This document shows, piece after piece, positions 17,678 to 45,701 of a DNA stretch of 64,000 nucleotides. The position numbers were made by a program, and so were the translations under genes. The notes beneath the pieces were generated by a model, which was given only the letters and a program-made list of their open reading frames with translations, was not told the DNA's origin and did not search any database. Positions within the stretch are counted from its first letter, which is position 1; every line of letters begins with the position of its first letter. This stretch comes from Escherichia coli (GTDB taxonomy: Bacteria; Pseudomonadota; Gammaproteobacteria; Enterobacterales; Enterobacteriaceae), in NCBI RefSeq assembly GCF_050920415.1, contig NZ_CP169309.1. One strand, given 5' to 3'.

Positions 17678-18349
17678 ATGCAGTACCCGATTAACGAGAT
17701 GTTCCAGACCCTGCAAGGTGAGGGTTACTTTACCGGCGTCCCCGCCATTTTTATTCGTTTACAGGGATGCCCGGTCGGCTGTGCCTGGTGCGACACCAAA
17801 CACACCTGGGAAAAGCTTGAGGATCGGGAAGTCTCCCTTTTCAGCATTCTGGCGAAGACCAAAGAGAGTGATAAGTGGGGGGCGGCGAGCAGTGAAGATT
17901 TGCTGGCTGTCATTGGTCGTCAGGGATACACCGCGCGGCATGTGGTGATTACGGGTGGTGAGCCTTGCATTCATGATTTGCTGCCACTGACTGACCTGCT
18001 CGAAAAGAACGGTTTTAGCTGCCAGATCGAAACCAGCGGTACTCATGAAGTACGCTGCACGCCGAATACCTGGGTTACCGTATCGCCAAAGCTGAACATG
18101 CGCGGCGGCTATGAAGTGTTGTCACAGGCACTGGAGCGAGCCAACGAAATCAAGCATCCAGTGGGACGCGTACGTGATATTGAAGCACTGGATGAACTAC
18201 TGGCAACGCTGACCGATGATAAACCACGAGTCATTGCACTGCAGCCAATTAGCCAGAAGGACGATGCCACACGTTTGTGCATTGAAACCTGTATTGCGCG
18301 TAACTGGCGTTTATCGATGCAAACACATAAATATTTAAATATTGCCTGA
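17678..18349 (+). CDS. queE: 7-carboxy-7-deazaguanine synthase (radical SAM)
   Basis: 223-aa ORF; Cys motif CPVGCAWC; MQYPINEMFQTLQGEGYFTG. Confidence 0.92.
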   Translation: MQYPINEMFQTLQGEGYFTGVPAIFIRLQGCPVGCAWCDTKHTWEKLEDREVSLFSILAKTKESDKWGAASSEDLLAVIGRQGYTARHVVITGGEPCIHDLLPLTDLLEKNGFSCQIETSGTHEVRCTPNTWVTVSPKLNMRGGYEVLSQALERANEIKHPVGRVRDIEALDELLATLTDDKPRVIALQPISQKDDATRLCIETCIARNWRLSMQTHKYLNIA

Positions 18350-18539
18350 TTAAACATTTATAAGCGTTATAAATGGGTGGAACCTGTAAAGACTTCCACT
18401 CATTTATATTCTTTGTCGCCTCTGAAAAAACTCCATTTTGCCCATTCTGGACTAATCATTATCATTCTCTACAAATTCTCTGGCGTTAATTTTTCGTTGG
18501 AGTGAAAATTATTGCAGTGAAGTTTGGTAGATTTTAGTG

Positions 18540-18687
18540 GGTATAGAGTTATTTTAAATATTTACTTTTTTAATCAATGGATTAAGTGTTCTTTAACATA
18601 ATGGATGTGTTGTTTGTGTGATCCTGTAAAGTTGGTAGATTGTGACTGGCTTAAAAAATCATTAATTAATAATAGGTTATGTTTAGA
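18540..18687 (+). promoter_or_regulatory. putative leader of the queE-proximal CRISPR array
   Basis: AT-rich sequence immediately 5' of the first repeat, same polarity as the repeats. Confidence 0.4.
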
Positions 18688-18899
18688 GAGTTCCCCACGT
18701 CAGCGGGGATAAACCGCTATACGAAGTTATTAGGTCCGAAGAGGAGTTGAGTTCCCCACGTCAGCGGGGATAAACCGTTTACGTGTTATCGCGCACCGGC
18801 GACGGTGTGGAGTTCCCCGCGCCAGCGGGGATAAACCGATTCAGCAAATAGCGAATTTCATAAATATGATGTGTTCCCCGCGCCAGCGGGGATAAACCA
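18688..18899 (+). CRISPR. type I-E CRISPR array, 4 repeats / 3 spacers (ygcE-queE array)
   Basis: 29-bp repeats at 18688, 18749, 18810, 18871 with 32-bp spacers (period 61); repeats 1-2 are the variant GAGTTCCCCaCGtCAGCGGGGATAAACCG, repeat 3 is canonical, repeat 4 is degenerate (GtG..., terminal a). Confidence 0.9.
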
Positions 18900-19352
18900 C
18901 CATATAACCCGTTATCTCTTTCTCAAGTTTTTATATTAGCTGTACTTGTAATAAGCAACATATCCACATAACACCTCATGTTCAAAATAGTTCCCCATGC
19001 CAGATAAGTTCACAATTATCGATACAAAAAATCAAATTTAATCAAAGTGTTATATGTATAATCCTTAAACCGTTAAGAAATTTTAATATATTATTTTTTT
19101 AATATTAATTAATGCCTGTTAATTTTTTCTTTAGAATAACAGTGTATTTTTTAAGCTTGTTATTCATTGATTAAGTAATAAATCTGGAAGTTTGTCTTTG
19201 TTTTGAGGCTAATGAGTGGTTTTACATAACCGCCTCTATACGCTGTTGATGAATAGTTCTTATGAATAAAGATATCCAGTTCATACTTTAAGTGAAAATT
19301 GATAAAGTGCGATTCGTATTGTCTTTTATTCTAAAGACATCGAGTGTAGTTA

Positions 19353-19490
19353 ATATTCCTTGTAAAAACAGGGATAAACCGAACTAGTTAAAGTTTTTAT
19401 TATGTTCCCTGCATCAGCGGGGATAAACCGGACTTGTTATCATTTTTTAAGTTGTCGAACTTATGTTCCCCGCGCCAGCGGGGATAACCA
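19353..19490 (+). CRISPR. degenerate CRISPR remnant (2-3 decayed repeats)
   Basis: repeat-like units ending at 19381, 19430 and 19490 (atGTTCCCtGCatCAGCGGGGATAAACCG; atGTTCCCCGCGCCAGCGGGGATAACCA) with one 32-bp spacer 19431..19462. Confidence 0.6.
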
Positions 19491-19536
19491 TTCAGGTATG
19501 TTCAGGCCGGGCAGTTTCCCGCCCGGTCTTCCTCAC

Positions 19537-21015
19537 TTACGCATTCGACCAGCTCTGGATCGAATCTGCATTCCCCAACTCACCATGCATCACTTCATAC
19601 GATTTTTTCAGGATCACATCAGTGTGTTTGGTTAGGTCTTTGAAAATGCCTTTATTCATCGCGTCGTAGCGTTTGGCATTGCTCTCAATCGGCATAAAGA
19701 TATCTTTCACGCGAACCATTTTGTCGACAGCCGTTGCGTAATCCGGGTATAGCCCCAGACCTACCGCTGTATTAATCGCGGCCCCCAGACTTGCGCAACC
19801 ATTAATGGCGTTACGGCGTGCCGGAAGGTTGAACACGTCGGCAAAAATCTGCATAAACAGATCGCTGTTCGAACCACCGCCAGTAATGATCACATGTTTC
19901 GCAAAGTGATTCATTTCATGACACATATTGTCGTAATTGTTCTTCAGCGTCAGCGCCACGCTTTCCAGTATCGAACGATAAATCCATGCGTAATCCATGC
20001 TGGAATCAAAGCCGATCATAATCCCGCGTTTGTAGGGTTCCCACGGGTTGGTCAGCCAGTCCAGCACCGTCATCAGACCATTACAGCCAGGCGGCACACA
20101 ACAAGCTTTTTTGTTGAGCAAATCTTCCGGTGAAAGATCCTGCGCCCTGGCATCCTGAATTAACGACTCGCCTAACATGTCGCGTAGCCAGCTCACCGTC
20201 CACATGCCTTTGCGAATACCGTAACCTTCATACAGCAAGGTTTGCGGAATAGAAGACATAATCGGCCAGTACGCTACCGGATCTTTCGGCAGTGCTTTGC
20301 CGTTCATCATCAGCGCGATGTAGGTACCAAGAGAAATTACCGCAGTTTCATCATCCAGTAACCCGGCTCCCAGTGCTTCTACCGGTTTATCACTGGTGGT
20401 ACAAACAACCGGCAGCCCAGCCGGGAAATGTGTCGCCAGCGCGGCTTGTGGTGTGATATGCCCAAGAACAGTGCCCGGCATTTGCACATCAAAAAGCATC
20501 TGTCGGGGAATATTAAACTTCTCCATTACCGCGGTATCTTCGCTCCATGCCCAGGTCTTATAATCCACCGGCCACTGACCAAAATAGTTGGCGATATTGT
20601 CTTTAAACTCGCCGGTTAAACGGTGTGTCAGATAACCTGAAAAAGAGGTGACATATGCCACATCAGGATTGGTGTGCTCGTAGGGACGTGTTACGCGTGC
20701 ATCCTGCCAGCTAATCAACGGCGCAGCTGGCGTGCCATCGGCTTTCAATAACGCACGGCAGCAACGGATAGATCCCAGACCAATGCCGACAATATCTTCT
20801 TTATTCCCGGCAAACTGGCTCATCAAATCGTGACCGGCAAAACATAATGATGCCCATAAATCGTCATCAGGATGTTCTGCGGTATCGGCATCTGGCGTGC
20901 GCATCGGCTGCAATAAGCCTTTGCCTTCGCATACCACATTACCTTCCAGATCGTACATCACCACTTTTGTGCTCTGACTTCCGCCATCAATCCCTATGAT
21001 GTATTTTTTCGACAT
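19537..21015 (-). CDS. ygcE: FGGY-family carbohydrate kinase
   Basis: 492-aa ORF; N-terminal IGIDGGSQSTKVV sugar-kinase motif. Confidence 0.85.
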   Translation of the reverse strand: MSKKYIIGIDGGSQSTKVVMYDLEGNVVCEGKGLLQPMRTPDADTAEHPDDDLWASLCFAGHDLMSQFAGNKEDIVGIGLGSIRCCRALLKADGTPAAPLISWQDARVTRPYEHTNPDVAYVTSFSGYLTHRLTGEFKDNIANYFGQWPVDYKTWAWSEDTAVMEKFNIPRQMLFDVQMPGTVLGHITPQAALATHFPAGLPVVCTTSDKPVEALGAGLLDDETAVISLGTYIALMMNGKALPKDPVAYWPIMSSIPQTLLYEGYGIRKGMWTVSWLRDMLGESLIQDARAQDLSPEDLLNKKACCVPPGCNGLMTVLDWLTNPWEPYKRGIMIGFDSSMDYAWIYRSILESVALTLKNNYDNMCHEMNHFAKHVIITGGGSNSDLFMQIFADVFNLPARRNAINGCASLGAAINTAVGLGLYPDYATAVDKMVRVKDIFMPIESNAKRYDAMNKGIFKDLTKHTDVILKKSYEVMHGELGNADSIQSWSNA

Positions 21016-35757: not shown

Positions 35758-38424
35758 ATGGAACCTTTTAAATATATATGTCATTACTGGGGGAAATCCT
35801 CAAAAAGCCTGACGAAAGGAAATGATATTCATCTGTTGATTTATCATTGCCTGGATGTTGCAGCTGTTGCAGATTGCTGGTGGGATCAATCAGTCGTACT
35901 ACAAAATGCTTTTTGCCGAAATGAAATGCTATCAAAACAGAAGGTGAAAGCCTGGCTGTTATTTTTCATTGCCCTTCATGATATCGGAAAGTTTGATATA
36001 CGATTCCAATATAAATCAGCAGAAAGTTGGCTGAAATTAAATCCTGCAACGTCATCACTTAATGGTCCATCAACACAAATGTGCCGTAAATTTAATCATG
36101 GTGCAGCCGGTCTGTATTGGTTTAACCAGGATTCACTTTCAGAGCAATCTCCCGGGGATTTTTTCAGTTTTTTTGATGCCGCTCCTCATCCTTATGAGTC
36201 CTGGTTTCCTTGGGTAGAGGCCGTTACAGGACATCATGGTTTTATATTACATTCCCAGGATCAAGATAAGTCGCGTTGGGAAATGCCAGCTTCTCTGGCA
36301 TCTTATGCTGCGCAAGATAAACAGGCTCGTGAGGAGTGGATATCTGTACTCGAAGCATTATTTTTAACACCAGCCGGGTTATCTATAAACGATATACCAC
36401 CTGATTGTTCATCATTGTTAGCAGGTTTTTGCTCGCTTGCTGACTGGTTAGGTTCCTGGACCACAACGGATACCTTTCTATTCAAAGAAGATGCACCTTC
36501 AGGCATACAAGCGCTAAGAAAATATTTTCAGGATAGACAACAGGATGCGTGTCGGGTACTGGAGTTGAGTGGCCTTGTATCAAATAAGCGTAGTTATGAC
36601 GGCGTACATGCCTTACTGGACAATGGCTATCAACCAAGACAATTACAGGTGTTGGTTGATGCTCTTCCTACAGCTCCCGGGCTGACGGTGATTGAGGCAC
36701 CTACGGGATCAGGTAAAACCGAAACAGCGCTGGCCTATGCCTGGAAACTTATTGACCAACAACTTGCGGATAGTGTTATTTTTGCCCTCCCTACACAAGC
36801 TACTGCAAATGCAATGCTCAGCAGAATGGAAGCGAACGCGAGCCGTTTATTTACCTCCCCAAATCTTATTCTTGCTCATGGTAATTCACGTTTTAACCAC
36901 CTTTTTCAATCAATAAAATCACGCGCATTTACTGAGCAGGGGCAAGAAGAAGCGTGGGTTCAGTGTTGCCAATGGTTGTCACAAAGCAATAAGAAAGTGT
37001 TTCTTGGGCAAATAGGAGTTTGCACGATTGATCAGGTGTTGATATCGGTATTGCCAGTTAAACACCGCTTTATCCGTGGTTTGGGAATTGGTCGAAGTGT
37101 TTTAATTGTTGATGAAGTTCATGCTTACGACACGTATATGAACGGCTTGCTGGAGGCTGTGCTCAAGGCTCAGGCTGATGTGGGGGGGAGTGTTATTCTT
37201 CTTTCCGCAACTCTACCAATGAAACAAAAACAGAAACTTCTGGATACTTATGGTCTGCATACAGATCCAGAGGAAAATAACTCCGCATATCCACTCATTA
37301 ACTGGCGAGGTGTGAATGGTGCGCAACGTTTTGATCTGTTAGCTCATCCAGAACAACTCCCGCCCCGCTTTTCAATTCAGCTAGAACCTATTTATTTAGC
37401 TGACATGTTACCTGACCTTACGATGTTAGAGCGAATGATCGCAGCGGCAAACGCGGGTGCACAAGTCTGTCTTATTTGCAATTTGGTTGACGTTGCACAA
37501 GTATGCTACCAACGGCTAAAGGAGCTAAATAACACGCAAGTAGATATAGATTTGTTTCATGCACGCTTTACGCTGAACGATCGTCGAGAAAAAGAGAATC
37601 GTGTTATTAGCGATTTCGGAAAAAATGGGGATCGAAATGTTGGACGAATACTTGTCGCCACGCAAGTCGTGGAACAATCGCTCGACGTTGATTTTGATTG
37701 GTTAATTACCCAGCATTGTCCCGCAGATTTGCTTTTCCAACGATTGGGCCGTTTACATCGTCATCATCGCAAATATCGTCCCGCTGGTTTTGAGATTCCT
37801 GTTGCCACCATTTTGCTGCCTGATGGCGAGGGTTACGGACGACATGAGCATATTTATAGCAACGTTAGAGTCATGTGGCGGACGCAGCAACATATTGAGG
37901 AACTTAATGGAGCATCCTTATTTTTCCCTGATGCTTACCGGCAATGGCTGGATAGCATTTACGATGATGCGGAAATGGATGAGCCAGAATGGGTCGGCAA
38001 TGGCATGGATAAATTTGAAAGCGCCGAGTGTGAAAAAAGGTTCAAGGCTCGTAAGGTTCTGCAGTGGGCTGAAGAATATAGCTTGCAGGATAACGATGAA
38101 ACCATTCTTGCGGTAACGAGGGATGGGGAAATGAGCCTGCCATTATTGCCTTATGTACAAACGTCTTCAGGTAAACAACTGCTCGATGGCCAGGTCTACG
38201 AGGACCTAAGTCATGAACAGCAGTATGAGGTGTTAGCACTTAATCGCGTCAATGTACCCTTCACTTGGAAACGTAGTTTTTCTGAAGTAGTAGATGAAGA
38301 TGGGTTACTTTGGCTGGAAGGGAAACAGAATCAGGATGGATGGATCTGGCAGGGTAATAATATTGTTATTACCTACACTCGGGATGAAGGGATGACCAGA
38401 GTCATCCCTGCAAATCCCAAATAA
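35758..38424 (+). CDS. cas3: type I-E Cas3 HD nuclease / SF2 helicase
   Basis: 888-aa ORF; HD motif (LHDIGKF), Walker A APTGSGKTE, DEVH box (IVDEVHAYD). Confidence 0.96.
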   Translation: MEPFKYICHYWGKSSKSLTKGNDIHLLIYHCLDVAAVADCWWDQSVVLQNAFCRNEMLSKQKVKAWLLFFIALHDIGKFDIRFQYKSAESWLKLNPATSSLNGPSTQMCRKFNHGAAGLYWFNQDSLSEQSPGDFFSFFDAAPHPYESWFPWVEAVTGHHGFILHSQDQDKSRWEMPASLASYAAQDKQAREEWISVLEALFLTPAGLSINDIPPDCSSLLAGFCSLADWLGSWTTTDTFLFKEDAPSGIQALRKYFQDRQQDACRVLELSGLVSNKRSYDGVHALLDNGYQPRQLQVLVDALPTAPGLTVIEAPTGSGKTETALAYAWKLIDQQLADSVIFALPTQATANAMLSRMEANASRLFTSPNLILAHGNSRFNHLFQSIKSRAFTEQGQEEAWVQCCQWLSQSNKKVFLGQIGVCTIDQVLISVLPVKHRFIRGLGIGRSVLIVDEVHAYDTYMNGLLEAVLKAQADVGGSVILLSATLPMKQKQKLLDTYGLHTDPEENNSAYPLINWRGVNGAQRFDLLAHPEQLPPRFSIQLEPIYLADMLPDLTMLERMIAAANAGAQVCLICNLVDVAQVCYQRLKELNNTQVDIDLFHARFTLNDRREKENRVISDFGKNGDRNVGRILVATQVVEQSLDVDFDWLITQHCPADLLFQRLGRLHRHHRKYRPAGFEIPVATILLPDGEGYGRHEHIYSNVRVMWRTQQHIEELNGASLFFPDAYRQWLDSIYDDAEMDEPEWVGNGMDKFESAECEKRFKARKVLQWAEEYSLQDNDETILAVTRDGEMSLPLLPYVQTSSGKQLLDGQVYEDLSHEQQYEVLALNRVNVPFTWKRSFSEVVDEDGLLWLEGKQNQDGWIWQGNNIVITYTRDEGMTRVIPANPK

Positions 38425-38838
38425 CTTCGGGAATGATTGGTATCAATGACGATAACAAGACCAATAACGGTTTATCCCTACTTAAGTAGGGAAGGTGCAC
38501 AATGTACATCTTCTTTTAATTTCCCGGTATGAGATTTTATATTCACAGTATGAATATTTTATGTAATAAAATTTATGGTAATTATTATAACTAAAAATTT
38601 CTTTGATAATAAAACGAATAACTTGCAGATTTGAAATGCATGCATTATTGTCTTTAAACAATTCAACACATCTTAATATATGCATAGGTTAATTGTATTA
38701 AACCAATGAATATATTTTTGCAGTGAATGTGATTATTGAATTAATTACGCCGTATTTTTTCTTTGTTTTTACCGATAACGGAAGTGTGCCGACGTATAGA
38801 AATGCAGGAGAAATGTCGGAGCATATGAAGGAGAACAA
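38425..38838. promoter_or_regulatory. cas3-casA intergenic region holding the casA operon promoter (H-NS/LeuO-controlled in K-12)
   Basis: very AT-rich 414-bp spacer directly upstream of casA; the regulatory role is from established K-12 knowledge, not read from the sequence. Confidence 0.55.
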
Positions 38839-40347
38839 ATGAATTTGCTTATTGATAACTGGATCCCTGTACGCCCGCGAAACGGGGGGAAAGTCCAAAT
38901 CCTAAATCTGCAATCGCTATACTGCAGTAGAGATCAGTGGCGGTTAAGTTTGCCCCGTGACGATATGGAACTGGCCGCTTTAGCACTGCTGGTTTGCATT
39001 GCACAAATTATCGCCCCGGCAAAAGATGACGTTGAATTTCGACATCGCATAATGAATCCGCTCACTGAAGATGAGTTTCAACGACTCATCGCGCCGTGGA
39101 TAGATATGTTCTACCTTAATCACGCAGAACATCCCTTTATGCAGACCAAAGGTGTCAAAGCAAATGATGTGACTCCAATGGAAAAACTATTGGCAGGGGT
39201 AAGCGGCGCGACGAATTGTGCATTTGTCAATCAACCGGGGCAGGGTGAAGCATTATGTGGTGGATGCACTGCGATTGCGTTATTCAACCAGGCGAATCAG
39301 GCACCTGGTTTTGGTGGTGGCTTTAAAAGCGGTTTACGTGGAGGAACACCTATAACCACCTTCGTATGTGGGATCGATCTTCGCTCGACGGTGTTACTCA
39401 ATGTCCTCACAATACCTCGTCTTCAAAAACAATTTCCCAATGAATCAAATACGGAAAACCAACCTACCTGGATTAAGCCTGTCAAGCCCAATGAATCTGT
39501 GCCAGCTTCGTCAATTGGGTTTGTCCGTGGCTTATTCTGGCAACCAGCGCATATTGAATTATGCGATCCCATTGGGATTGGTAAATGTTCTTGCTGTGGA
39601 CAGGAAAGCAATTTGCGTTATACAGGTTTTCTTAAGGAAAAATTTACCTTTACAGTTAATGGGCTATGGCCCCATCCGCATTCCCCTTGTCTGGTAACAG
39701 TCAAGAAAGGGGAGGTTGAGGAAAAATTTCTTGCTTTCACCACCTCCGCACCATCATGGACGCAAATCAGCCGAGTTGTGGTAGATAAGATTATTCAAAA
39801 TGAAAATGGAAATCGCGTGGCGGCGGTTGTGAATCAATTCAGAAATATTGCGCCGCAAAGTCCTCTTGAATTGATTATGGGGGGATATCGTAATAATCAA
39901 GCATCTATTCTTGAACGACGTCATGATGTGCTGATGTTTAATCAGGGGTGGCAACAATACGGCAATGTTATAAACGAAATAGTGACTGTTGGTTTGGGGT
40001 ATAAAACAGCCTTACGCAAGGCGTTATATACTTTTGTGGAAGGTATTAAAAATAAAGACTTTAAAGGGGCTGGAGTCTCTGTTCATGAGACTGCAGAAAG
40101 GCATTTCTATCGACAGAGTGAATTATTAATTCCCGATGTATTGGCGAATGTTAATTTTTCCCAGGCTGATGAGGTAATAGCTGATTTACGAGACAAACTT
40201 CATCAATTGTGTGAAATGCTATTTAATCAATCTGTAGCTCCCTATGCACATCATCCTAAATTAATAAGCACATTAGCACTCGCCCGCGCCACGCTATACA
40301 AACATTTACGGGAGTTAAAACCGCAAGGAGGGCCATCAAATGGCTGA
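38839..40347 (+). CDS. casA: Cascade large subunit Cse1
   Basis: 502-aa ORF, first gene of casABCDE-cas1-cas2. Confidence 0.95.
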   Translation: MNLLIDNWIPVRPRNGGKVQILNLQSLYCSRDQWRLSLPRDDMELAALALLVCIAQIIAPAKDDVEFRHRIMNPLTEDEFQRLIAPWIDMFYLNHAEHPFMQTKGVKANDVTPMEKLLAGVSGATNCAFVNQPGQGEALCGGCTAIALFNQANQAPGFGGGFKSGLRGGTPITTFVCGIDLRSTVLLNVLTIPRLQKQFPNESNTENQPTWIKPVKPNESVPASSIGFVRGLFWQPAHIELCDPIGIGKCSCCGQESNLRYTGFLKEKFTFTVNGLWPHPHSPCLVTVKKGEVEEKFLAFTTSAPSWTQISRVVVDKIIQNENGNRVAAVVNQFRNIAPQSPLELIMGGYRNNQASILERRHDVLMFNQGWQQYGNVINEIVTVGLGYKTALRKALYTFVEGIKNKDFKGAGVSVHETAERHFYRQSELLIPDVLANVNFSQADEVIADLRDKLHQLCEMLFNQSVAPYAHHPKLISTLALARATLYKHLRELKPQGGPSNG

Positions 40348-40822
40348 TGAAATTGATGCAATGGCTTTATATCGAGCCTGGCAACAGCTGGATAACGGAG
40401 CATGTGCGCAAATTAGACGTGTTTCAGAACCTGATGATTTACGCGATATCCCTGCGTTTTATCGGTTGGTGCAACCTTTTGGTTGGGAAAACCTGCGTCA
40501 CCAACAGGCTCTTTTGCGCATGGTGTTTTGCCTGAGCGCAGGAAAGAATGTCATCCGACATCAGGATAAAAAACCGGAGCAAACAATAGGTATCTCGTTG
40601 GGAAGAGCTTTAGCCAATAGTGGAAGAATTAACGAGCGCCGTATCTTCCAATTGATTCGGGCTGACAGAACAGCCGATATGGTCCAGTTACGTCGATTGC
40701 TTGCTCACGCCGAACCCGTACTTGACTGGTCATTAATGGCCCGGATGTTGACCTGGTGGGGAAAGCGCGAACGCCAGCAACTTCTGGAAGATTTTGTATT
40801 GACCACAAACAAAAATGCGTAA
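40340..40822 (+). CDS. casB: Cascade small subunit Cse2
   Basis: 160-aa ORF overlapping casA by 8 bp. Confidence 0.95.
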   Translation: MADEIDAMALYRAWQQLDNGACAQIRRVSEPDDLRDIPAFYRLVQPFGWENLRHQQALLRMVFCLSAGKNVIRHQDKKPEQTIGISLGRALANSGRINERRIFQLIRADRTADMVQLRRLLAHAEPVLDWSLMARMLTWWGKRERQQLLEDFVLTTNKNA

Positions 40823-40834
40823 GGAAACCTCTCA

Positions 40835-41926
40835 ATGTCTAATTTTATTAATATCCATGTCCTGATCTCTCACAGCCCTTCATGTCTGAACCGCGACGAT
40901 ATGAACATGCAGAAAGACGCTATTTTCGGCGGGAAAAGGCGAGTAAGAATTTCAAGTCAAAGCCTTAAACGTGCGATGCGTAAAAGTGATTATTACGCAC
41001 AAAATATTGGTGAATCCAGTCTCAGAACAATTCATCTTGCACAATTACGTGATGTTCTTCGGCAAAAACTTGGTGAACGTTTTGAGCAAAAAATCATCGA
41101 TAAGACATTAGCTCTGCTCTCCGGTAAATCAGTTGATGAAGCTGAAAAGATTTCTGCCGATGCGGTTACTCCCTGGGTTGTGGGAGAAATAGCCTGGTTC
41201 TGTGAGCAGGTTGCAAAAGCAGAGGCAGATAATCTGGATGATAAAAAGCTGCTCAAAATTCTTAAGGAAGATATTGCCGCTATCCGTGTGAATTTACAGC
41301 AGGGGGTTGATATTGCGCTTAGCGGAAGAATGGCAACCAGCGGCATGATGAGTGAGTTGGGAAAAGTTGATGGTGCAATGTCCATTGCGCACGCGATCAC
41401 GACCCATCAGGTTGATTCTGATATTGACTGGTTCACCGCCGTAGATGATTTACAGGAACAAGGTTCTGCACATCTGGGAACACAGGAATTTTCATCGGGT
41501 GTTTTTTATCGTTATGCCAACATTAACCTTGCTCAACTTCAGGAAAATTTAGGCGGCGCCTCCTGGGAGCAGGCTCTGGAAATTGCAACCCATGTTGTTC
41601 ATATGCTGGCAACAGAGGTCCCTGGAGCAAAACAGCGTACTTATGCCGCTTTTAACCCTGCGGAGATGGTAATGGTTAATTTCTCCGATATGCCACTTTC
41701 TATGGCAAATGCTTTTGAAAAAGCGGTGAAAGCGAAAGATGGCTTTTTGCAACCGTCTATACAGGCGTTTAATCAATATTGGGATCGCGTTGCGAATGGC
41801 TATGGTCTGAACGGAGCTGCTGCGCAATTTAGCTTGTCTGACATGGACCCAATTACTGCTCAGGTTAAACAAATGCCTACTTTAGAACAGTTAAAATCCT
41901 GGGTTCGTAATAATGGCGAGGCGTGA
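40835..41926 (+). CDS. casC: Cascade backbone subunit Cas7e
   Basis: 363-aa ORF; [22 protein letters not shown]. Confidence 0.95.
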
Positions 41927-41928
41927 AC

Positions 41929-42603
41929 ATGAGATCTTATTTGATCTTGCGGCTTGCTGGGCCAATGCAAGCCTGGGGGCTGCCGACCTTTGAAGGAACG
42001 CGACCTACCGGAAGATTTCCGACCCGAAGCGGGTTATTAGGGCTACTCGGGGCTTGTCTTGGGATCCAACGTGATGATACTTCTTCATTACAGGTGTTAT
42101 CAGAGAGTGTGCAATTTGCAGTGCGTTGCGATGAACTCATTCTTGACGATCGTCGTGTGTCTGTAACGGGGTTGCGTGATTACCATACAGTCCTTGGAGC
42201 GCGAGAAGATTACCGTGGTTTGAAAAGTCATGAAACGATTCAAACATGGCGCGAATATTTATGTGATGCCTCCTTTACCGTCGCTATCTGGTTAACACCA
42301 CAGGCAACGATGGTTATGTCAGAACTTGAAAAAGCAGTATTAAAGCCTCGGTATACACCGTATCTGGGGCGGAGGAGTTGTCCGCTAACACAACCGCTTT
42401 TTCTCGGGACATGTCAGGCGTCGGATCCTCAGAAGGCGCTATTAAATTATGAGCCCGTTGGCGGCGATATTTATAGTGAGGAATCAGTTGACGGGCATCA
42501 TTTAAAATTTACGGTGCGCGACGAACCGATGATCACCTTACCTCGACAATTTGCTTCCCGGGAATGGTATGTGATTAAAGGAGGTATGGATGTATCTCAG
42601 TAA
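41929..42603 (+). CDS. casD: Cascade subunit Cas5e
   Basis: ORF 41923..42603; start taken at MRSYLILRLAGPMQAWG. Confidence 0.92.
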   Translation: MRSYLILRLAGPMQAWGLPTFEGTRPTGRFPTRSGLLGLLGACLGIQRDDTSSLQVLSESVQFAVRCDELILDDRRVSVTGLRDYHTVLGAREDYRGLKSHETIQTWREYLCDASFTVAIWLTPQATMVMSELEKAVLKPRYTPYLGRRSCPLTQPLFLGTCQASDPQKALLNYEPVGGDIYSEESVDGHHLKFTVRDEPMITLPRQFASREWYVIKGGMDVSQ

Positions 42604-43189
42604 AATCATCATTGCCAGGGCCTGTAGCAGGGATCTTTACCAACTTCACCAGGGATTATGGCATTTATTTCCAAATAGACCAGATGCTGCTCGTGATTTT
42701 CTTTTTCATGTTGAGAAGCGAAACACACCAGAAGGCTGTCATGTTTTATTGCAGTCAGCGCAAATGCCTGTTTCAACTGCCGTTGCGACAGTCATTAAAA
42801 CTAAACAGGTTGAATTTCAACTTCAGGTTGGTGTTCCACTCTATTTTCGGCTTCGGGCAAATCCGATCAAAACTATTCTCGACAATCAAAAGCGTCTGGA
42901 CAGTAAAGGGAATATTAAACGCTGTCGGGTTCCGTTAATAAAAGAAGCAGAACAAATCGCGTGGTTGCAACGTAAATTGGGCAATGCGGCGCGCGTTGAA
43001 GATGTGCATCCCATATCGGAACGGCCACAGTATTTTTCTGGGGAAGGTAAAAATGGAAAAATCCAAACGGTTTGCTTTGAAGGTGTGCTCACCGTCAATG
43101 ACGCATCAGCGTTAATGGATCTTATACAGCAAGGTATTGGGCCAGCCAAATCGATGGGATGTGGTTTGCTATCTTTGGCTCCACTGTGA
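42590..43189 (+). CDS. casE: Cas6e crRNA endoribonuclease
   Basis: 199-aa ORF; MYLSKIIIARA... Confidence 0.95.
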   Translation: MYLSKIIIARACSRDLYQLHQGLWHLFPNRPDAARDFLFHVEKRNTPEGCHVLLQSAQMPVSTAVATVIKTKQVEFQLQVGVPLYFRLRANPIKTILDNQKRLDSKGNIKRCRVPLIKEAEQIAWLQRKLGNAARVEDVHPISERPQYFSGEGKNGKIQTVCFEGVLTVNDASALMDLIQQGIGPAKSMGCGLLSLAPL

Positions 43190-43204
43190 TTGAGGTGTAA
43201 TAAA

Positions 43205-44408
<1,204 letters not shown>

Positions 44409-44513: not shown

Positions 44514-45701
44514 GAGTTCCCCGCGCCAGCGGGGATAAACCGCTCGCGTATACTCTCTGCCAACGTCTCCAGATGAGTTCCCCGCGCCAGCGGGGATAAA
44601 CCGGCGGGATTATCGGCACTGACGTCGGCGCTGTGGAGTTCCCCGCGCCAGCGGGGATAAACCGGGTCGCTTCCATATATGAACCTTGAGGATTAGGAGT
44701 TCCCCGCGCCAGCGGGGATAAACCGGTTCCATGCACTGCCCGCAGTGTCAGCCGTACGAGTTCCCCGCGCCAGCGGGGATAAACCGGTAAATCATACGTT
44801 GGCATCAGTATTTTTCTCGAGTTCCCCGCGCCAGCGGGGATAAACCGACTCCGCGCCATTTGAGAATTCTCAGTTCTGCGAGTTCCCCGCGCCAGCGGGG
44901 ATAAACCGCTACTGCTGTCAGACGGCAGGGCAAAACAGCGGAGTTCCCCGCGCCAGCGGGGATAAACCGGACGTGCGGATGCTGTTTCTGGTTTTACCTC
45001 CGAGTTCCCCGCGCCAGCGGGGATAAACCGTTTTTTCTCAGCGTCTGGCAGAGCTAATCGCCGAGTTCCCCGCGCCAGCGGGGATAAACCGGTGTCAAAT
45101 TTCATGTAATTGATGATCCAGCTGAGTTCCCCGCGCCAGCGGGGATAAACCGGGTATTTCTCGTTAACACGGTCGTATCAAAACGAGTTCCCCGCGCCAG
45201 CGGGGATAAACCGAGGGGTTGCAACCATAGCCCTTAGTTGATTGCGAGTTCCCCGCGCCAGCGGGGATAAACCGCCAGTGGATTTTAATAAACTCTCCAG
45301 CGAGCAGAGTTCCCCGCGCCAGCGGGGATAAACCGTTCGCCACGTCAGGCGTGATTTCCTGCACTGAGAGTTCCCCGCGCCAGCGGGGATAAACAGGGCG
45401 CGTCTGCGCCCGCTAGGACTCGTGTCAAGAGTTCCCCGCGCCAGCGGGGATAAACCGGGAGTTCAGACATAGGTGGAATGATGGACTACGAGTTCCCCGC
45501 GTTAGCGGGGATAAACCGCCCGGTAGCCAGGTTTGCAACGCCTGAACCGAGAGTTCCCCGCGCCAGCAGGGATAAATCGGCAACGACGGTGAGATTTCAC
45601 GCCTGACGCTGGTGTTCCCCGCATCAGCGGGGATAAACCGGGCGCACTGGATGCGATGATGGATATCACTTAGAATTCCCCGCCCCTGCGGTAGAACTCC
45701 C
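44514..45701 (+). CRISPR. type I-E CRISPR array, 20 repeats / 19 spacers
   Basis: 29-bp repeat GAGTTCCCCGCGCCAGCGGGGATAAACCG at 44514 and every 61 bp to 45673; 32-bp spacers; variants in repeats 15 (AAACaG), 17 (GCGttAGC), 18, 19 and a degenerate terminal repeat. Confidence 0.97.

What the first reader, a model, noticed from the sequence alone, without database searches (positions are those of the whole stretch)
18688..19490. Short queE-proximal array followed by AT-rich DNA and a decayed second array
The 4-repeat array is followed by about 450 bp of AT-rich sequence containing an isolated repeat-like fragment (AGTTCCCCaTGCCAGataag at 18989..19008) and then 2-3 degenerate repeats (19353..19490) abutting the ygcE 3' end. 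The first two repeats of the active array carry the same two substitutions (CCaCGtCAG), which preserve neither the canonical stem sequence nor obvious compensation. This looks like array erosion or an internal deletion.
Basis: seen in the sequence. Interest (0 to 1): 0.35.

Follow-up and report, generated by a model that had tools for sequence, protein, structure and literature searches.

The report
E. coli CRISPR-II locus, growing array
This is the ordinary, species-wide CRISPR-II locus of E. coli (a short live array, a conserved AT-rich stretch and a fossil mini-array), and the two odd repeats mark the growing end of the array, where the newest spacer matches phage P1, not decay.

Summary
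Its reading as erosion or internal deletion in this strain is mostly wrong.

- **The layout is known.** It runs queE, leader, CRISPR2.3, about 0.5 kb of AT-rich DNA, three-repeat CRISPR2.2, ygcE. This is the published E. coli CRISPR-II architecture. K-12 has it, and 4123 of 5426 complete genomes have the AT-rich/CRISPR2.2 part, mostly at 95-99% identity.
- **The leader is on the queE side.** It spans 18350-18687. Its last 61 bp are identical to K-12's. The two variant repeats are therefore the newest ones.
- **The variant is shared.** The change G10A + C13T turns GCGC into ACGT. It occurs in 118 complete genomes. In 11 arrays from 10 other genomes plus this window it forms a contiguous leader-proximal block of 1-11 copies at exact 61-bp spacing. 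That is the pattern expected if the first repeat is copied at each acquisition.
- **The hairpin is weakened, not lost.** It keeps six of seven pairs, with an A·C mismatch (-9.7 against -15.1 kcal/mol).
- **The newest spacer is phage-derived.** It matches P1-like phage-plasmids 32/32 at loxP, with an ATG PAM.
- **The cas operon is complete.** A K-12-type I-E set lies in the window.

Real erosion is limited to one lost oldest unit and an ancient half-repeat relic. Interest is low.

The parts
17678..18349 (+). queE (ygcF), the flanking gene on the leader side
   Evidence: ORF. The same position is annotated queE in the 99.9%-identical strain MFDS1022581.
18350..18687 (+). Leader of CRISPR2.3 (AT-rich). 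The last 61 bp carry the IHF-binding and Cas1-2 anchoring region.
   Evidence: The last 61 columns are invariant in 10 strains including K-12. The IHF site at -9 to -35 and the essential 60 bp are described in PMC5224486. GC is 25-35%.
18688..18716 (+). Repeat R1, variant allele (G10A, C13T), leader-proximal and newest
   Evidence: Folds as a 6-pair hairpin with an A·C mismatch, -9.7 kcal/mol.
18717..18748 (+). Spacer S1 (newest), derived from the loxP right arm plus flank of a P1-like phage-plasmid
   Evidence: 32/32 to three P1-like phage records and 31/32 to P1 and P7. The PAM is ATG. Exact protospacers occur in 161 E. coli genomes, 159 of them on plasmids. The spacer is absent from the nearest relative.
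18749..18777 (+). Repeat R2, the same variant allele
18778..18809 (+). Spacer S2, source unknown
   Evidence: No match in phages or plasmids. In E. coli genomes it occurs only inside CRISPR arrays.
18810..18838 (+). Repeat R3, canonical
   Evidence: 0 mismatches.
18839..18870 (+). Spacer S3 (oldest retained), shared with strain EC42405
18871..18899 (+). Terminal repeat of CRISPR2.3 (GTGTT...AAACCA), a conserved degenerate end
   Evidence: The terminal repeat ends in CCA and is followed by the same flank in K-12 and in every other CRISPR2.3 array read; several carry further substitutions.
18900..19352 (.). Conserved AT-rich inter-array segment of about 0.5 kb. No ORF of 40 aa or more and no significant leader similarity.
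   Evidence: GC 16-34%. The query 18900-19536 is covered at 80% or more in 4123 of 5426 genomes, and 4013 records match at 95-99% identity. Similarity to leader2.3 and leader2.1 is within the shuffle range. ORFs.
18989..19008 (+). Relic of a repeat 5' half (AGTTCCCCATGCCAG...)
   Evidence: 13/15 match, reached by 0 of 5000 shuffles. It does not fold. The other seven strains compared, including K-12, carry T at 18994.
19353..19491 (+). CRISPR2.2, a fossil array of three degenerate repeats (19353-19381, 19402-19430, 19463-19491) and two invariant spacers (19382-19401, 19431-19462)
   Evidence: The two clearer repeats and the 32-nt spacer recur in all 14 CRISPR2.3-bearing strains read. The third repeat is seen in the window and lies in the conserved segment. 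'Three repeats and two invariable spacers' is from PMC4489801. All three repeats still fold as 7-pair hairpins.
19537..21015 (-). ygcE (FGGY-family sugar kinase), the flanking gene
35758..44408 (+). Complete type I-E cas operon (cas3, casA, casB, casC, casD, casE, cas1, cas2), K-12 type
   Evidence: All eight score above NCBIfam cut-offs. They are 95.6-98.7% identical in amino acids to MG1655, with no internal stops.
44514..45640 (+). CRISPR2.1 array: 19 repeats, of which 15 match the 27-nt core exactly

Best explanation
The region is the standard E. coli CRISPR-II locus.

- **Live array.** CRISPR2.3 has three spacers and is read from a leader next to queE. It is served in trans by the intact K-12-type I-E cas operon 17 kb downstream in the same window.
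- **Inherited DNA.** The 0.5-kb AT-rich segment and the three degenerate repeats next to ygcE (CRISPR2.2) are ancient and invariant. The whole species carries them.
- **Origin of the variant repeats (inferred).** The leader-proximal repeat acquired, or received by recombination, the allele GCGC to ACGT (G10A + C13T). Cas1-Cas2 copies the first repeat each time a spacer is integrated. The next acquisition was a 32-nt fragment of a P1-like phage-plasmid covering the loxP right arm, with an ATG PAM. That event produced a second, identical variant repeat.
- **Meaning.** The shared substitutions therefore mark growth at the leader end, not decay.
- **Function (inferred, untested).** The variant RNA keeps the five basal pairs and the loop-closing pair of the Cas6e hairpin. 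It is probably still processed, perhaps less efficiently.
- **Real losses are small.** One oldest repeat-spacer unit is gone compared with EC42405. A half-repeat relic from the distant past lies in the AT-rich segment.
For: **Architecture**
- The layout in K-12 and 12 other strains is identical: leader, array, terminal CCA repeat, 531-532 bp, then the degenerate CRISPR2.2 repeats with the same spacer.
- The AT-rich/CRISPR2.2 query is covered at 80% or more in 4123 of 5426 genomes.
- The literature describes exactly this arrangement (PMC3903273; PMC4489801).

**Leader**
- The last 61 bp are identical across 10 strains.

**Variant allele**
- It is present in 118 genomes, with a median of 4 copies.
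- In 11 arrays from 10 other genomes plus this window it forms a contiguous leader-proximal block of 1-11 copies at exact 61-bp spacing, with canonical repeats distal.
- Strain 2020CK-00188 shows a further nested mutation confined to the five most proximal copies. The KE55 CRISPR2.1 array shows the same nesting with a different mutation.
- Duplication of the first repeat at integration is established (PMC5224486; PMC5039180).

**Newest spacer**
- S1 matches P1-like phages 32/32 and has an ATG PAM.
- Its exact protospacer occurs in 161 E. coli genomes, 159 of them on plasmids.
- The nearest relative, 99.9% identical over 45 kb, has one variant repeat and lacks S1.

**Machinery and hairpin**
- The cas operon is intact.
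- The hairpin is retained with one mismatch.
Against: - **Direction of the S1 difference is unresolved.** The relative also carries a 5-spacer internal deletion in CRISPR2.1, so it may have lost S1 rather than the window having gained it. Either way S1 must have been acquired on a variant first repeat.
- **G10 lies inside the CCCCGCG anchor motif.** Multi-base mutation of that motif cut adaptation about 100-fold (PMC5039180). Efficiency may therefore be reduced.
- **ATG is unusual for K-12-type Cas1-2.** It corresponds to CAT in the notation of PMC3737337. That machinery prefers AAG (CTT).
- **A single origin is not established.** The allele sits on at least three leader haplotypes. It occurs with unrelated anchor spacers, in a genome with the other cas type, and in one that has lost cas. 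It occurs once in a terminal repeat. Simple vertical descent from one mutation does not explain this, so recombination or recurrence must be invoked.
- **No expression or processing data exist.**
Confidence: 0.82

Rival explanations
1. Strain-level erosion or internal deletion. On this view a longer single array was broken up. The AT-rich DNA, the isolated fragment and the distal repeats are its wreckage, and the variant repeats are decaying copies.
For: - The array is short, with three spacers.
- The oldest unit present in EC42405 is missing here.
- The close relative shows that repeat-mediated deletions happen in this lineage.
- The half-repeat at 18989 is a real relic.
- Some strains are reported to carry a single fused CRISPR2.2-3 array (PMC3903273).
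Against: - The AT-rich segment and CRISPR2.2 are about 97.5% identical to K-12. They are present in 4123 of 5426 genomes at the same 531-532 bp spacing.
- The variant repeats lie at the leader (young) end and are identical to each other.
- The spacer between them matches living P1-like elements perfectly.
Confidence: 0.08
2. The variant repeats are a functional dead end. The uncompensated stem mismatch prevents Cas6e processing, so S1 and S2 give no immunity. The blocks seen in other genomes are neutral hitch-hikers in silent arrays.
For: - The A·C mismatch costs 5.4 kcal/mol.
- The variant repeat R2 hairpin has only 0.05 probability in a whole-array equilibrium fold.
- MDR_56 has a frameshifted cas3 and 2020CK-00188 has lost the cas operon.
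- K-12-type cas operons are known to be H-NS-silenced (PMC5965381).
Against: - The whole-array fold does not discriminate. Canonical repeats in control arrays also score 0.00-0.95.
- The five basal pairs and the cleavage-site sequence are intact.
- Repeated, length-exact acquisitions (up to 11) show that the DNA-level function is retained.
- The window's cas genes are all intact.
Confidence: 0.2
3. The two identical variant repeats arose by gene conversion or inter-strain recombination that imported a leader-proximal cassette, not by templated duplication in this lineage.
For: - The same allele lies on at least three leader haplotypes and with unrelated anchor spacers.
- It occurs once in a terminal repeat.
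- S2 also exists in the CRISPR2.1 arrays of other strains.
- Exchange at E. coli CRISPR loci is documented (PMC3903273).
Against: - No other genome in the collection carries S1 in an array, so no donor is visible.
- The closest relative has exactly the one-unit-shorter array that a single acquisition or loss step would predict.
- Recombination would explain how the allele spreads between lineages. It does not explain why the allele always forms contiguous leader-proximal blocks.
Confidence: 0.15

Closest known systems
E. coli K-12 CRISPR-II locus (ygcE-ygcF/queE intergenic region: CRISPR2.3 plus CRISPR2.2; Díez-Villaseñor/Almendros/Mojica nomenclature)
   Same: - Same flanking genes and orientation.
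- The last 61 bp of the leader are identical.
- The terminal repeat likewise ends in CCA.
- The 0.5-kb AT-rich segment is about 97.5% identical.
- CRISPR2.2 repeats and its invariant spacer are the same.
- The cas operon is 96-99% identical in amino acids.
(PMC3903273, PMC4489801)
   Different: - Spacer content: three spacers here against six in K-12, none shared.
- The body repeats here begin GAGTT, whereas K-12 CRISPR2.3 repeats begin GTGTT.
- The two newest repeats carry the G10A/C13T allele, which K-12 lacks.
CRISPR2.3 arrays of MFDS1022581, of the MDR_56/strain 104 group (many isolates from poultry), of 2014C-3075 and of 2020CK-00188, all carrying the same variant repeat
   Same: The repeat GAGTTCCCCACGTCAGCGGGGATAAACCG is identical. 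It forms leader-proximal blocks at a 61-bp period with canonical repeats distal.
   Different: - Only MFDS1022581 shares spacers (S2, S3).
- The others have different spacers, leader haplotypes and cas status: the other cas type with a frameshifted cas3, or no cas operon at all.
- None carries the P1-lox spacer.
Engineered repeat mutants in the type I-E adaptation assay (Goren et al. 2016, two molecular rulers)
   Same: The natural allele changes one base of the IR1 anchor motif CCCCGCG and one base between the inverted repeats. Like the tolerated mutants, it is copied faithfully into new repeats of normal length.
   Different: It is a natural allele and its efficiency has not been measured. 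The published IR mutants that abolished adaptation changed several bases at once.

Membership tests
Type I-E CRISPR array (E. coli CRISPR2 repeat family) | 29-nt repeats matching GAGTTCCCCGCGCCAGCGGGGATAAACCG, alternating with 32-nt spacers at a 61-bp period | tested here: met
   Four repeats with 0-2 mismatches at exact 61-bp spacing. None is expected by chance.
Type I-E CRISPR array (E. coli CRISPR2 repeat family) | AT-rich leader with the IHF and Cas1-2 anchoring region directly upstream of the first repeat | tested here: met
   18350-18687. The last 61 bp are identical to the K-12 CRISPR2.3 leader and to eight other strains. The motif region is described in PMC5224486. Binding itself was not tested.
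Type I-E CRISPR array (E. coli CRISPR2 repeat family) | Cognate cas genes (cas1, cas2, cas6e, Cascade genes, cas3) in the genome | tested here: met
   All eight lie at 35758-44408 and score above NCBIfam cut-offs. They are 96-99% identical to K-12.
Type I-E CRISPR array (E. coli CRISPR2 repeat family) | Repeat RNA forms the 7-bp stem and 4-nt loop bound by Cas6e | tested here: inconclusive
   R3 and R4 form the full hairpin (-15.1 kcal/mol). R1 and R2 keep six of seven pairs with an A·C mismatch (-9.7 kcal/mol). Whole-array folding was not discriminating. Cas6e cleavage cannot be tested here.
Type I-E CRISPR array (E. coli CRISPR2 repeat family) | Spacers derived from mobile elements next to an interference-proficient PAM | tested here: met
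   S1 matches P1-like elements 32/32 with an ATG PAM. No source was found for S2. S3 was not searched.
Type I-E CRISPR array (E. coli CRISPR2 repeat family) | Transcription and processing into 61-nt crRNAs, and interference | not testable with these tools
   This needs RNA and phenotype data. The promoter scan was not above shuffles.
CRISPR2.2 (invariant fossil array of the E. coli CRISPR-II locus) | Three degenerate repeats with two invariable spacers next to ygcE, about 0.5 kb from CRISPR2.3 | tested here: met
   Repeats at 19353, 19402 and 19463. The 32-nt spacer is the same in all 14 CRISPR2.3-bearing strains read, at a 531-532 bp offset. The definition is from PMC4489801 and PMC3903273.
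CRISPR leader (as a reading of the AT-rich segment 18900-19352) | Sequence similarity to the CRISPR2.3 or CRISPR2.1 leaders | tested here: not met
   Local alignment scores were 32 and 23. Shuffles gave means of 23.4 and 20.0 and maxima of 39 and 34. The literature assigns leaders only to CRISPR2.1 and CRISPR2.3.

The most novel reading that the evidence does not exclude
The GCGC to ACGT repeat allele may be more than a passive marker. It is found in about 2% of complete E. coli genomes. It occurs on different leader haplotypes, with unrelated spacer sets, and in genomes with K-12-type cas genes, with O157-type cas genes, or with none. It sits in the growth zone in every array read, though one array also has it in its terminal repeat. 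This would mean either that the same symmetric double change arises repeatedly, or that leader-proximal CRISPR cassettes are swapped between lineages by recombination. It would also mean that neither the perfect Cas6e stem nor base G10 of the IR1 ruler anchor is required for adaptation in nature. A full-text search for the variant sequence found no paper.
Probability: 0.3. Interest if true: 0.4.

Novelty: already known. Interest (0 to 1): 0.18.

Why it matters
For genome annotation, this is a textbook locus and should not be flagged as damaged. It has two modest points of value.

- **A natural record of repeat copying.** The array shows first-repeat templating in the wild. A mutated first repeat is copied faithfully into each new unit. 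Repeat polymorphisms can therefore be read as a timeline of acquisitions.
- **A natural test of repeat requirements.** An allele that weakens the Cas6e hairpin and touches the IR1 anchor motif still supports repeated, length-exact acquisitions. This complements the plasmid mutagenesis data.

The newest spacer targets the loxP/cre-promoter region of P1-like phage-plasmids. These are common carriers of accessory genes in E. coli.

Tried and rejected
- **Leader similarity.** Local alignment of the AT-rich segment against both leaders was not above shuffles.
- **Rfam.** A scan of 18300-19600 gave only a sub-threshold chance hit.
- **Promoters and terminators.** Counts equalled the shuffle expectation, so the scan was uninformative.
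- **Small ORFs.** The AT-rich DNA holds only ORFs of 20-31 aa and nothing credible.
- **Whole-array RNA folding.** I used it to ask whether the variant hairpins still form. R2 scored 0.05. Control arrays with canonical repeats scored equally low in places, so I rejected the measure as non-discriminating.
- **Other species.** An exact search for the variant repeat in one genome per bacterial species found nothing.
- **Literature.** A full-text search for the variant sequence found nothing.
- **Source of S2.** No protospacer was found in phages, plasmids or E. coli genomes.
- **PAM fit.** I first assumed the ATG PAM fitted an O157-type system. The window's cas genes turned out to be K-12 type, for which ATG is the less usual choice.
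- **Origin of the variant by conversion.** I considered gene conversion from CRISPR2.2 or from the CRISPR2.1 terminal repeats. Their substitutions differ from the variant's.
- **Engineered loxP.** I considered an engineered origin for S1. I rejected it because 18 nt of native P1 flank also match.

Full report
**What is there**

The finding lies between queE (17678-18349, + strand) and ygcE (19537-21015, - strand). A search for the E. coli type I-E repeat finds 25 copies in the window, against none in shuffles. Six lie in this region. Nineteen form a second array at 44514-45640.

- **CRISPR2.3.** Four repeats start at 18688, 18749, 18810 and 18871 with a 61-bp period.
- **AT-rich stretch.** 18900-19352 has 16-34% GC.
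- **Degenerate repeats.** These start at 19353, 19402 and 19463. They match 18, 24 and 24 of 29 bases, and are spaced 49 and 61 bp apart.
- **Isolated fragment.** The fragment at 18989 matches 13 of 15 bases of the repeat's 5' half. None of 5000 shuffles reached even 12 of 15.

**The layout belongs to the species, not the strain**

K-12 MG1655 and twelve other E. coli strains show the same order:
- the leader;
- an array of variable length;
- a terminal repeat ending in CCA, followed by CCATATAACCCG...;
- 531-532 bp of AT-rich DNA;
- the degenerate CRISPR2.2 repeats around the same spacer GACTTGTTATCATTTTTTAAGTTGTCGAACTT;
- ygcE.

The segment 18900-19536 is covered at 80% or more in 4123 of 5426 complete genomes, mostly at 95-99% identity. 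It differs from K-12 at 16 of 643 aligned columns.

The literature describes this arrangement. The CRISPR-II locus lies between ygcE and ygcF and holds CRISPR2.2 and CRISPR2.3 separated by 0.5 kb, with leaders next to CRISPR2.1 and CRISPR2.3 only (PMC3903273). CRISPR2.2 consists of three repeats and two invariable spacers (PMC4489801).

The AT-rich segment is not a recognisable leader. Its best local alignments to both leaders fall within the shuffle range. It holds no credible ORF.

**Orientation changes the meaning of the variant repeats**

The repeats read GAGTTCCCC...ATAAACCG on the + strand. The leader is therefore the 338 bp on the queE side. Its last 61 bp are identical in all ten strains compared, K-12 included. 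This stretch contains the IHF site and the Cas1-2 anchoring region needed for integration (PMC5224486). New spacers enter at the leader-repeat junction, and the first repeat is duplicated each time (PMC5039180). R1 and R2, the two variant repeats, are thus the youngest.

**The variant allele is shared and propagated**

- **Frequency.** The exact variant repeat occurs in 118 of 5426 complete genomes, with a median of four copies. It is absent from the representative genomes of other species.
- **Position.** In eleven arrays from ten other genomes, plus the window, it forms a contiguous leader-proximal block of 1 to 11 copies at exact 61-bp spacing. Canonical repeats lie distal to it.
- **Nested mutations.** In strain 2020CK-00188 a further substitution is confined to the five most proximal copies. 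In the KE55 CRISPR2.1 array a different substitution (C13T alone) fills eleven proximal repeats, with a nested change in the top two.

This is the pattern expected if each acquisition copies the current first repeat.

The closest relative is MFDS1022581. It is 99.9% identical over 45 kb. It has the same array with one variant repeat and without S1. Whether the window gained S1 or the relative lost it cannot be settled. The relative also lacks five internal CRISPR2.1 spacers, so deletions do occur there. In either case S1 was acquired when the first repeat was already variant.

**The newest spacer**

- **Source.** S1 (18717-18748) matches three P1-like phage records 32/32. It matches P1, P7 and relatives 31/32.
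- **What it covers.** It spans the last base of the loxP core, the right 13-bp arm and 18 nt of native flank. That flank reaches the -10 element of a cre promoter.
- **PAM.** The base triplet before the protospacer is ATG.
- **Distribution.** Exact protospacers occur in 161 E. coli genomes, 159 of them on plasmids of roughly 80-250 kb. No other genome in the collection has S1 in an array.
- **Caveat.** ATG is reported as interference-proficient. It is the less usual acquisition motif for K-12-type Cas1-2, which prefers AAG (PMC3737337).
- **Other spacers.** No source was found for S2.

**Machinery**

The window holds a complete cas3-casABCDE-cas1-cas2 operon. All eight genes score above NCBIfam cut-offs. 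They are 96-99% identical to K-12 proteins and have no internal stops.

**The hairpin**

The canonical repeat folds into a 7-pair stem with a 4-nt loop at -15.1 kcal/mol. The variant keeps six pairs, with an A·C mismatch second from the loop, at -9.7 kcal/mol. C13T lies in the loop.

G10 also lies in the CCCCGCG motif that anchors one of the two Cas1-2 rulers. Base 13 lies in the tolerant region between the inverted repeats. The natural blocks show that repeat length is still measured correctly.

Folding the whole pre-crRNA gave a low probability (0.05) for the R2 hairpin. Canonical repeats in control arrays scored equally low in places. I therefore do not use that result.

**What remains of the erosion idea**

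- Strain EC42405 shares spacer S3 but has one older unit that the window lacks. One distal unit has therefore been lost here.
- CRISPR2.2 and the half-repeat relic are genuine fossils. They are old and shared by the species.

**What is unexplained**

- The same double change sits on at least three leader haplotypes and with unrelated anchor spacers.
- It occurs in genomes with K-12-type cas genes, with the other cas type (cas3 frameshifted), and with no cas operon.
- It occurs once in a terminal repeat.
- Recurrent mutation of the GCGC palindrome or recombinational spread of leader-proximal cassettes would each explain this. I could not distinguish between them.

**Verdict**

This is a known locus, correctly observed but misread as decay. 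The variant repeats mark growth of the array. Interest is low, with a small side interest in the repeat allele.

Noticed in passing
window 18778-18809; L016 1530-1622; L017 1601-1632: Spacer S2 of this CRISPR2.3 array also occurs in the CRISPR2.1 (cas2-iap) arrays of three other strains, KE55, GMF054 and GMF065. In KE55 it is flanked by canonical GT-type repeats and occurs twice in tandem. No protospacer was found anywhere. This points to independent capture of the same protospacer, or to transfer between arrays.
   Followed up: partly
window 18697/18700 and 18758/18761: The variant converts the 4-bp palindrome GCGC into the palindrome ACGT through symmetric transitions at both outer positions. 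C13T alone is a common polymorphism elsewhere: the KE55 CRISPR2.1 block, and the last CRISPR2.2 repeat of K-12. The cause of the symmetric double change is unknown.
   Followed up: partly
window 19353-19462: The most degenerate CRISPR2.2 repeat (19353-19381) has 11 substitutions. It still folds as a 7-pair hairpin through two compensatory pairs (C-G to U-A) and one wobble. A simple count gives p of about 0.2, so this is weak evidence. Its 20-nt spacer resembles the start of the next spacer, which suggests the unit arose by duplication with a 12-bp loss.
   Followed up: partly
window 44514-45640 versus L006 44644-45467: The window's CRISPR2.1 has 19 repeats. The 99.9%-identical strain MFDS1022581 has 14. 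It lacks five internal spacers while sharing the three newest and the ten oldest, which indicates an internal deletion in that strain.
   Followed up: yes
window 18871-18899; K-12 L003: The terminal CRISPR2.3 repeat begins GTGTT in the window, while the body repeats begin GAGTT. In K-12 it is the reverse: the body begins GTGTT and the terminal repeat GAGTT. The A/T repeat types are thus mixed within single arrays.
   Followed up: no
window 18742-18784; L004 86-100: In P1-like DNA the bases from position 31 of the S1 protospacer onward read TTTACGT. This equals the first 7 nt of the neighbouring spacer S2. S1 also ends in GAGTT, the first 5 nt of the repeat. Both are probably coincidences, because S2 exists without S1 in other strains.
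   Followed up: no
window 19503-19529: A GC-rich inverted repeat (CCGGGC...GCCCGG) lies between CRISPR2.2 and the ygcE stop codon. It could act as a terminator for ygcE or for read-through CRISPR transcripts. The terminator scan did not call it because there is no T run.
   Followed up: no
L018 (MDR_56) and L019 (2020CK-00188): Genomes with the longest variant-repeat blocks have a damaged or absent interference module. MDR_56 has a frameshifted cas3 next to an IS421. 2020CK-00188 keeps only a cas3 remnant between CRISPR2.1 and cysH.
   Followed up: partly
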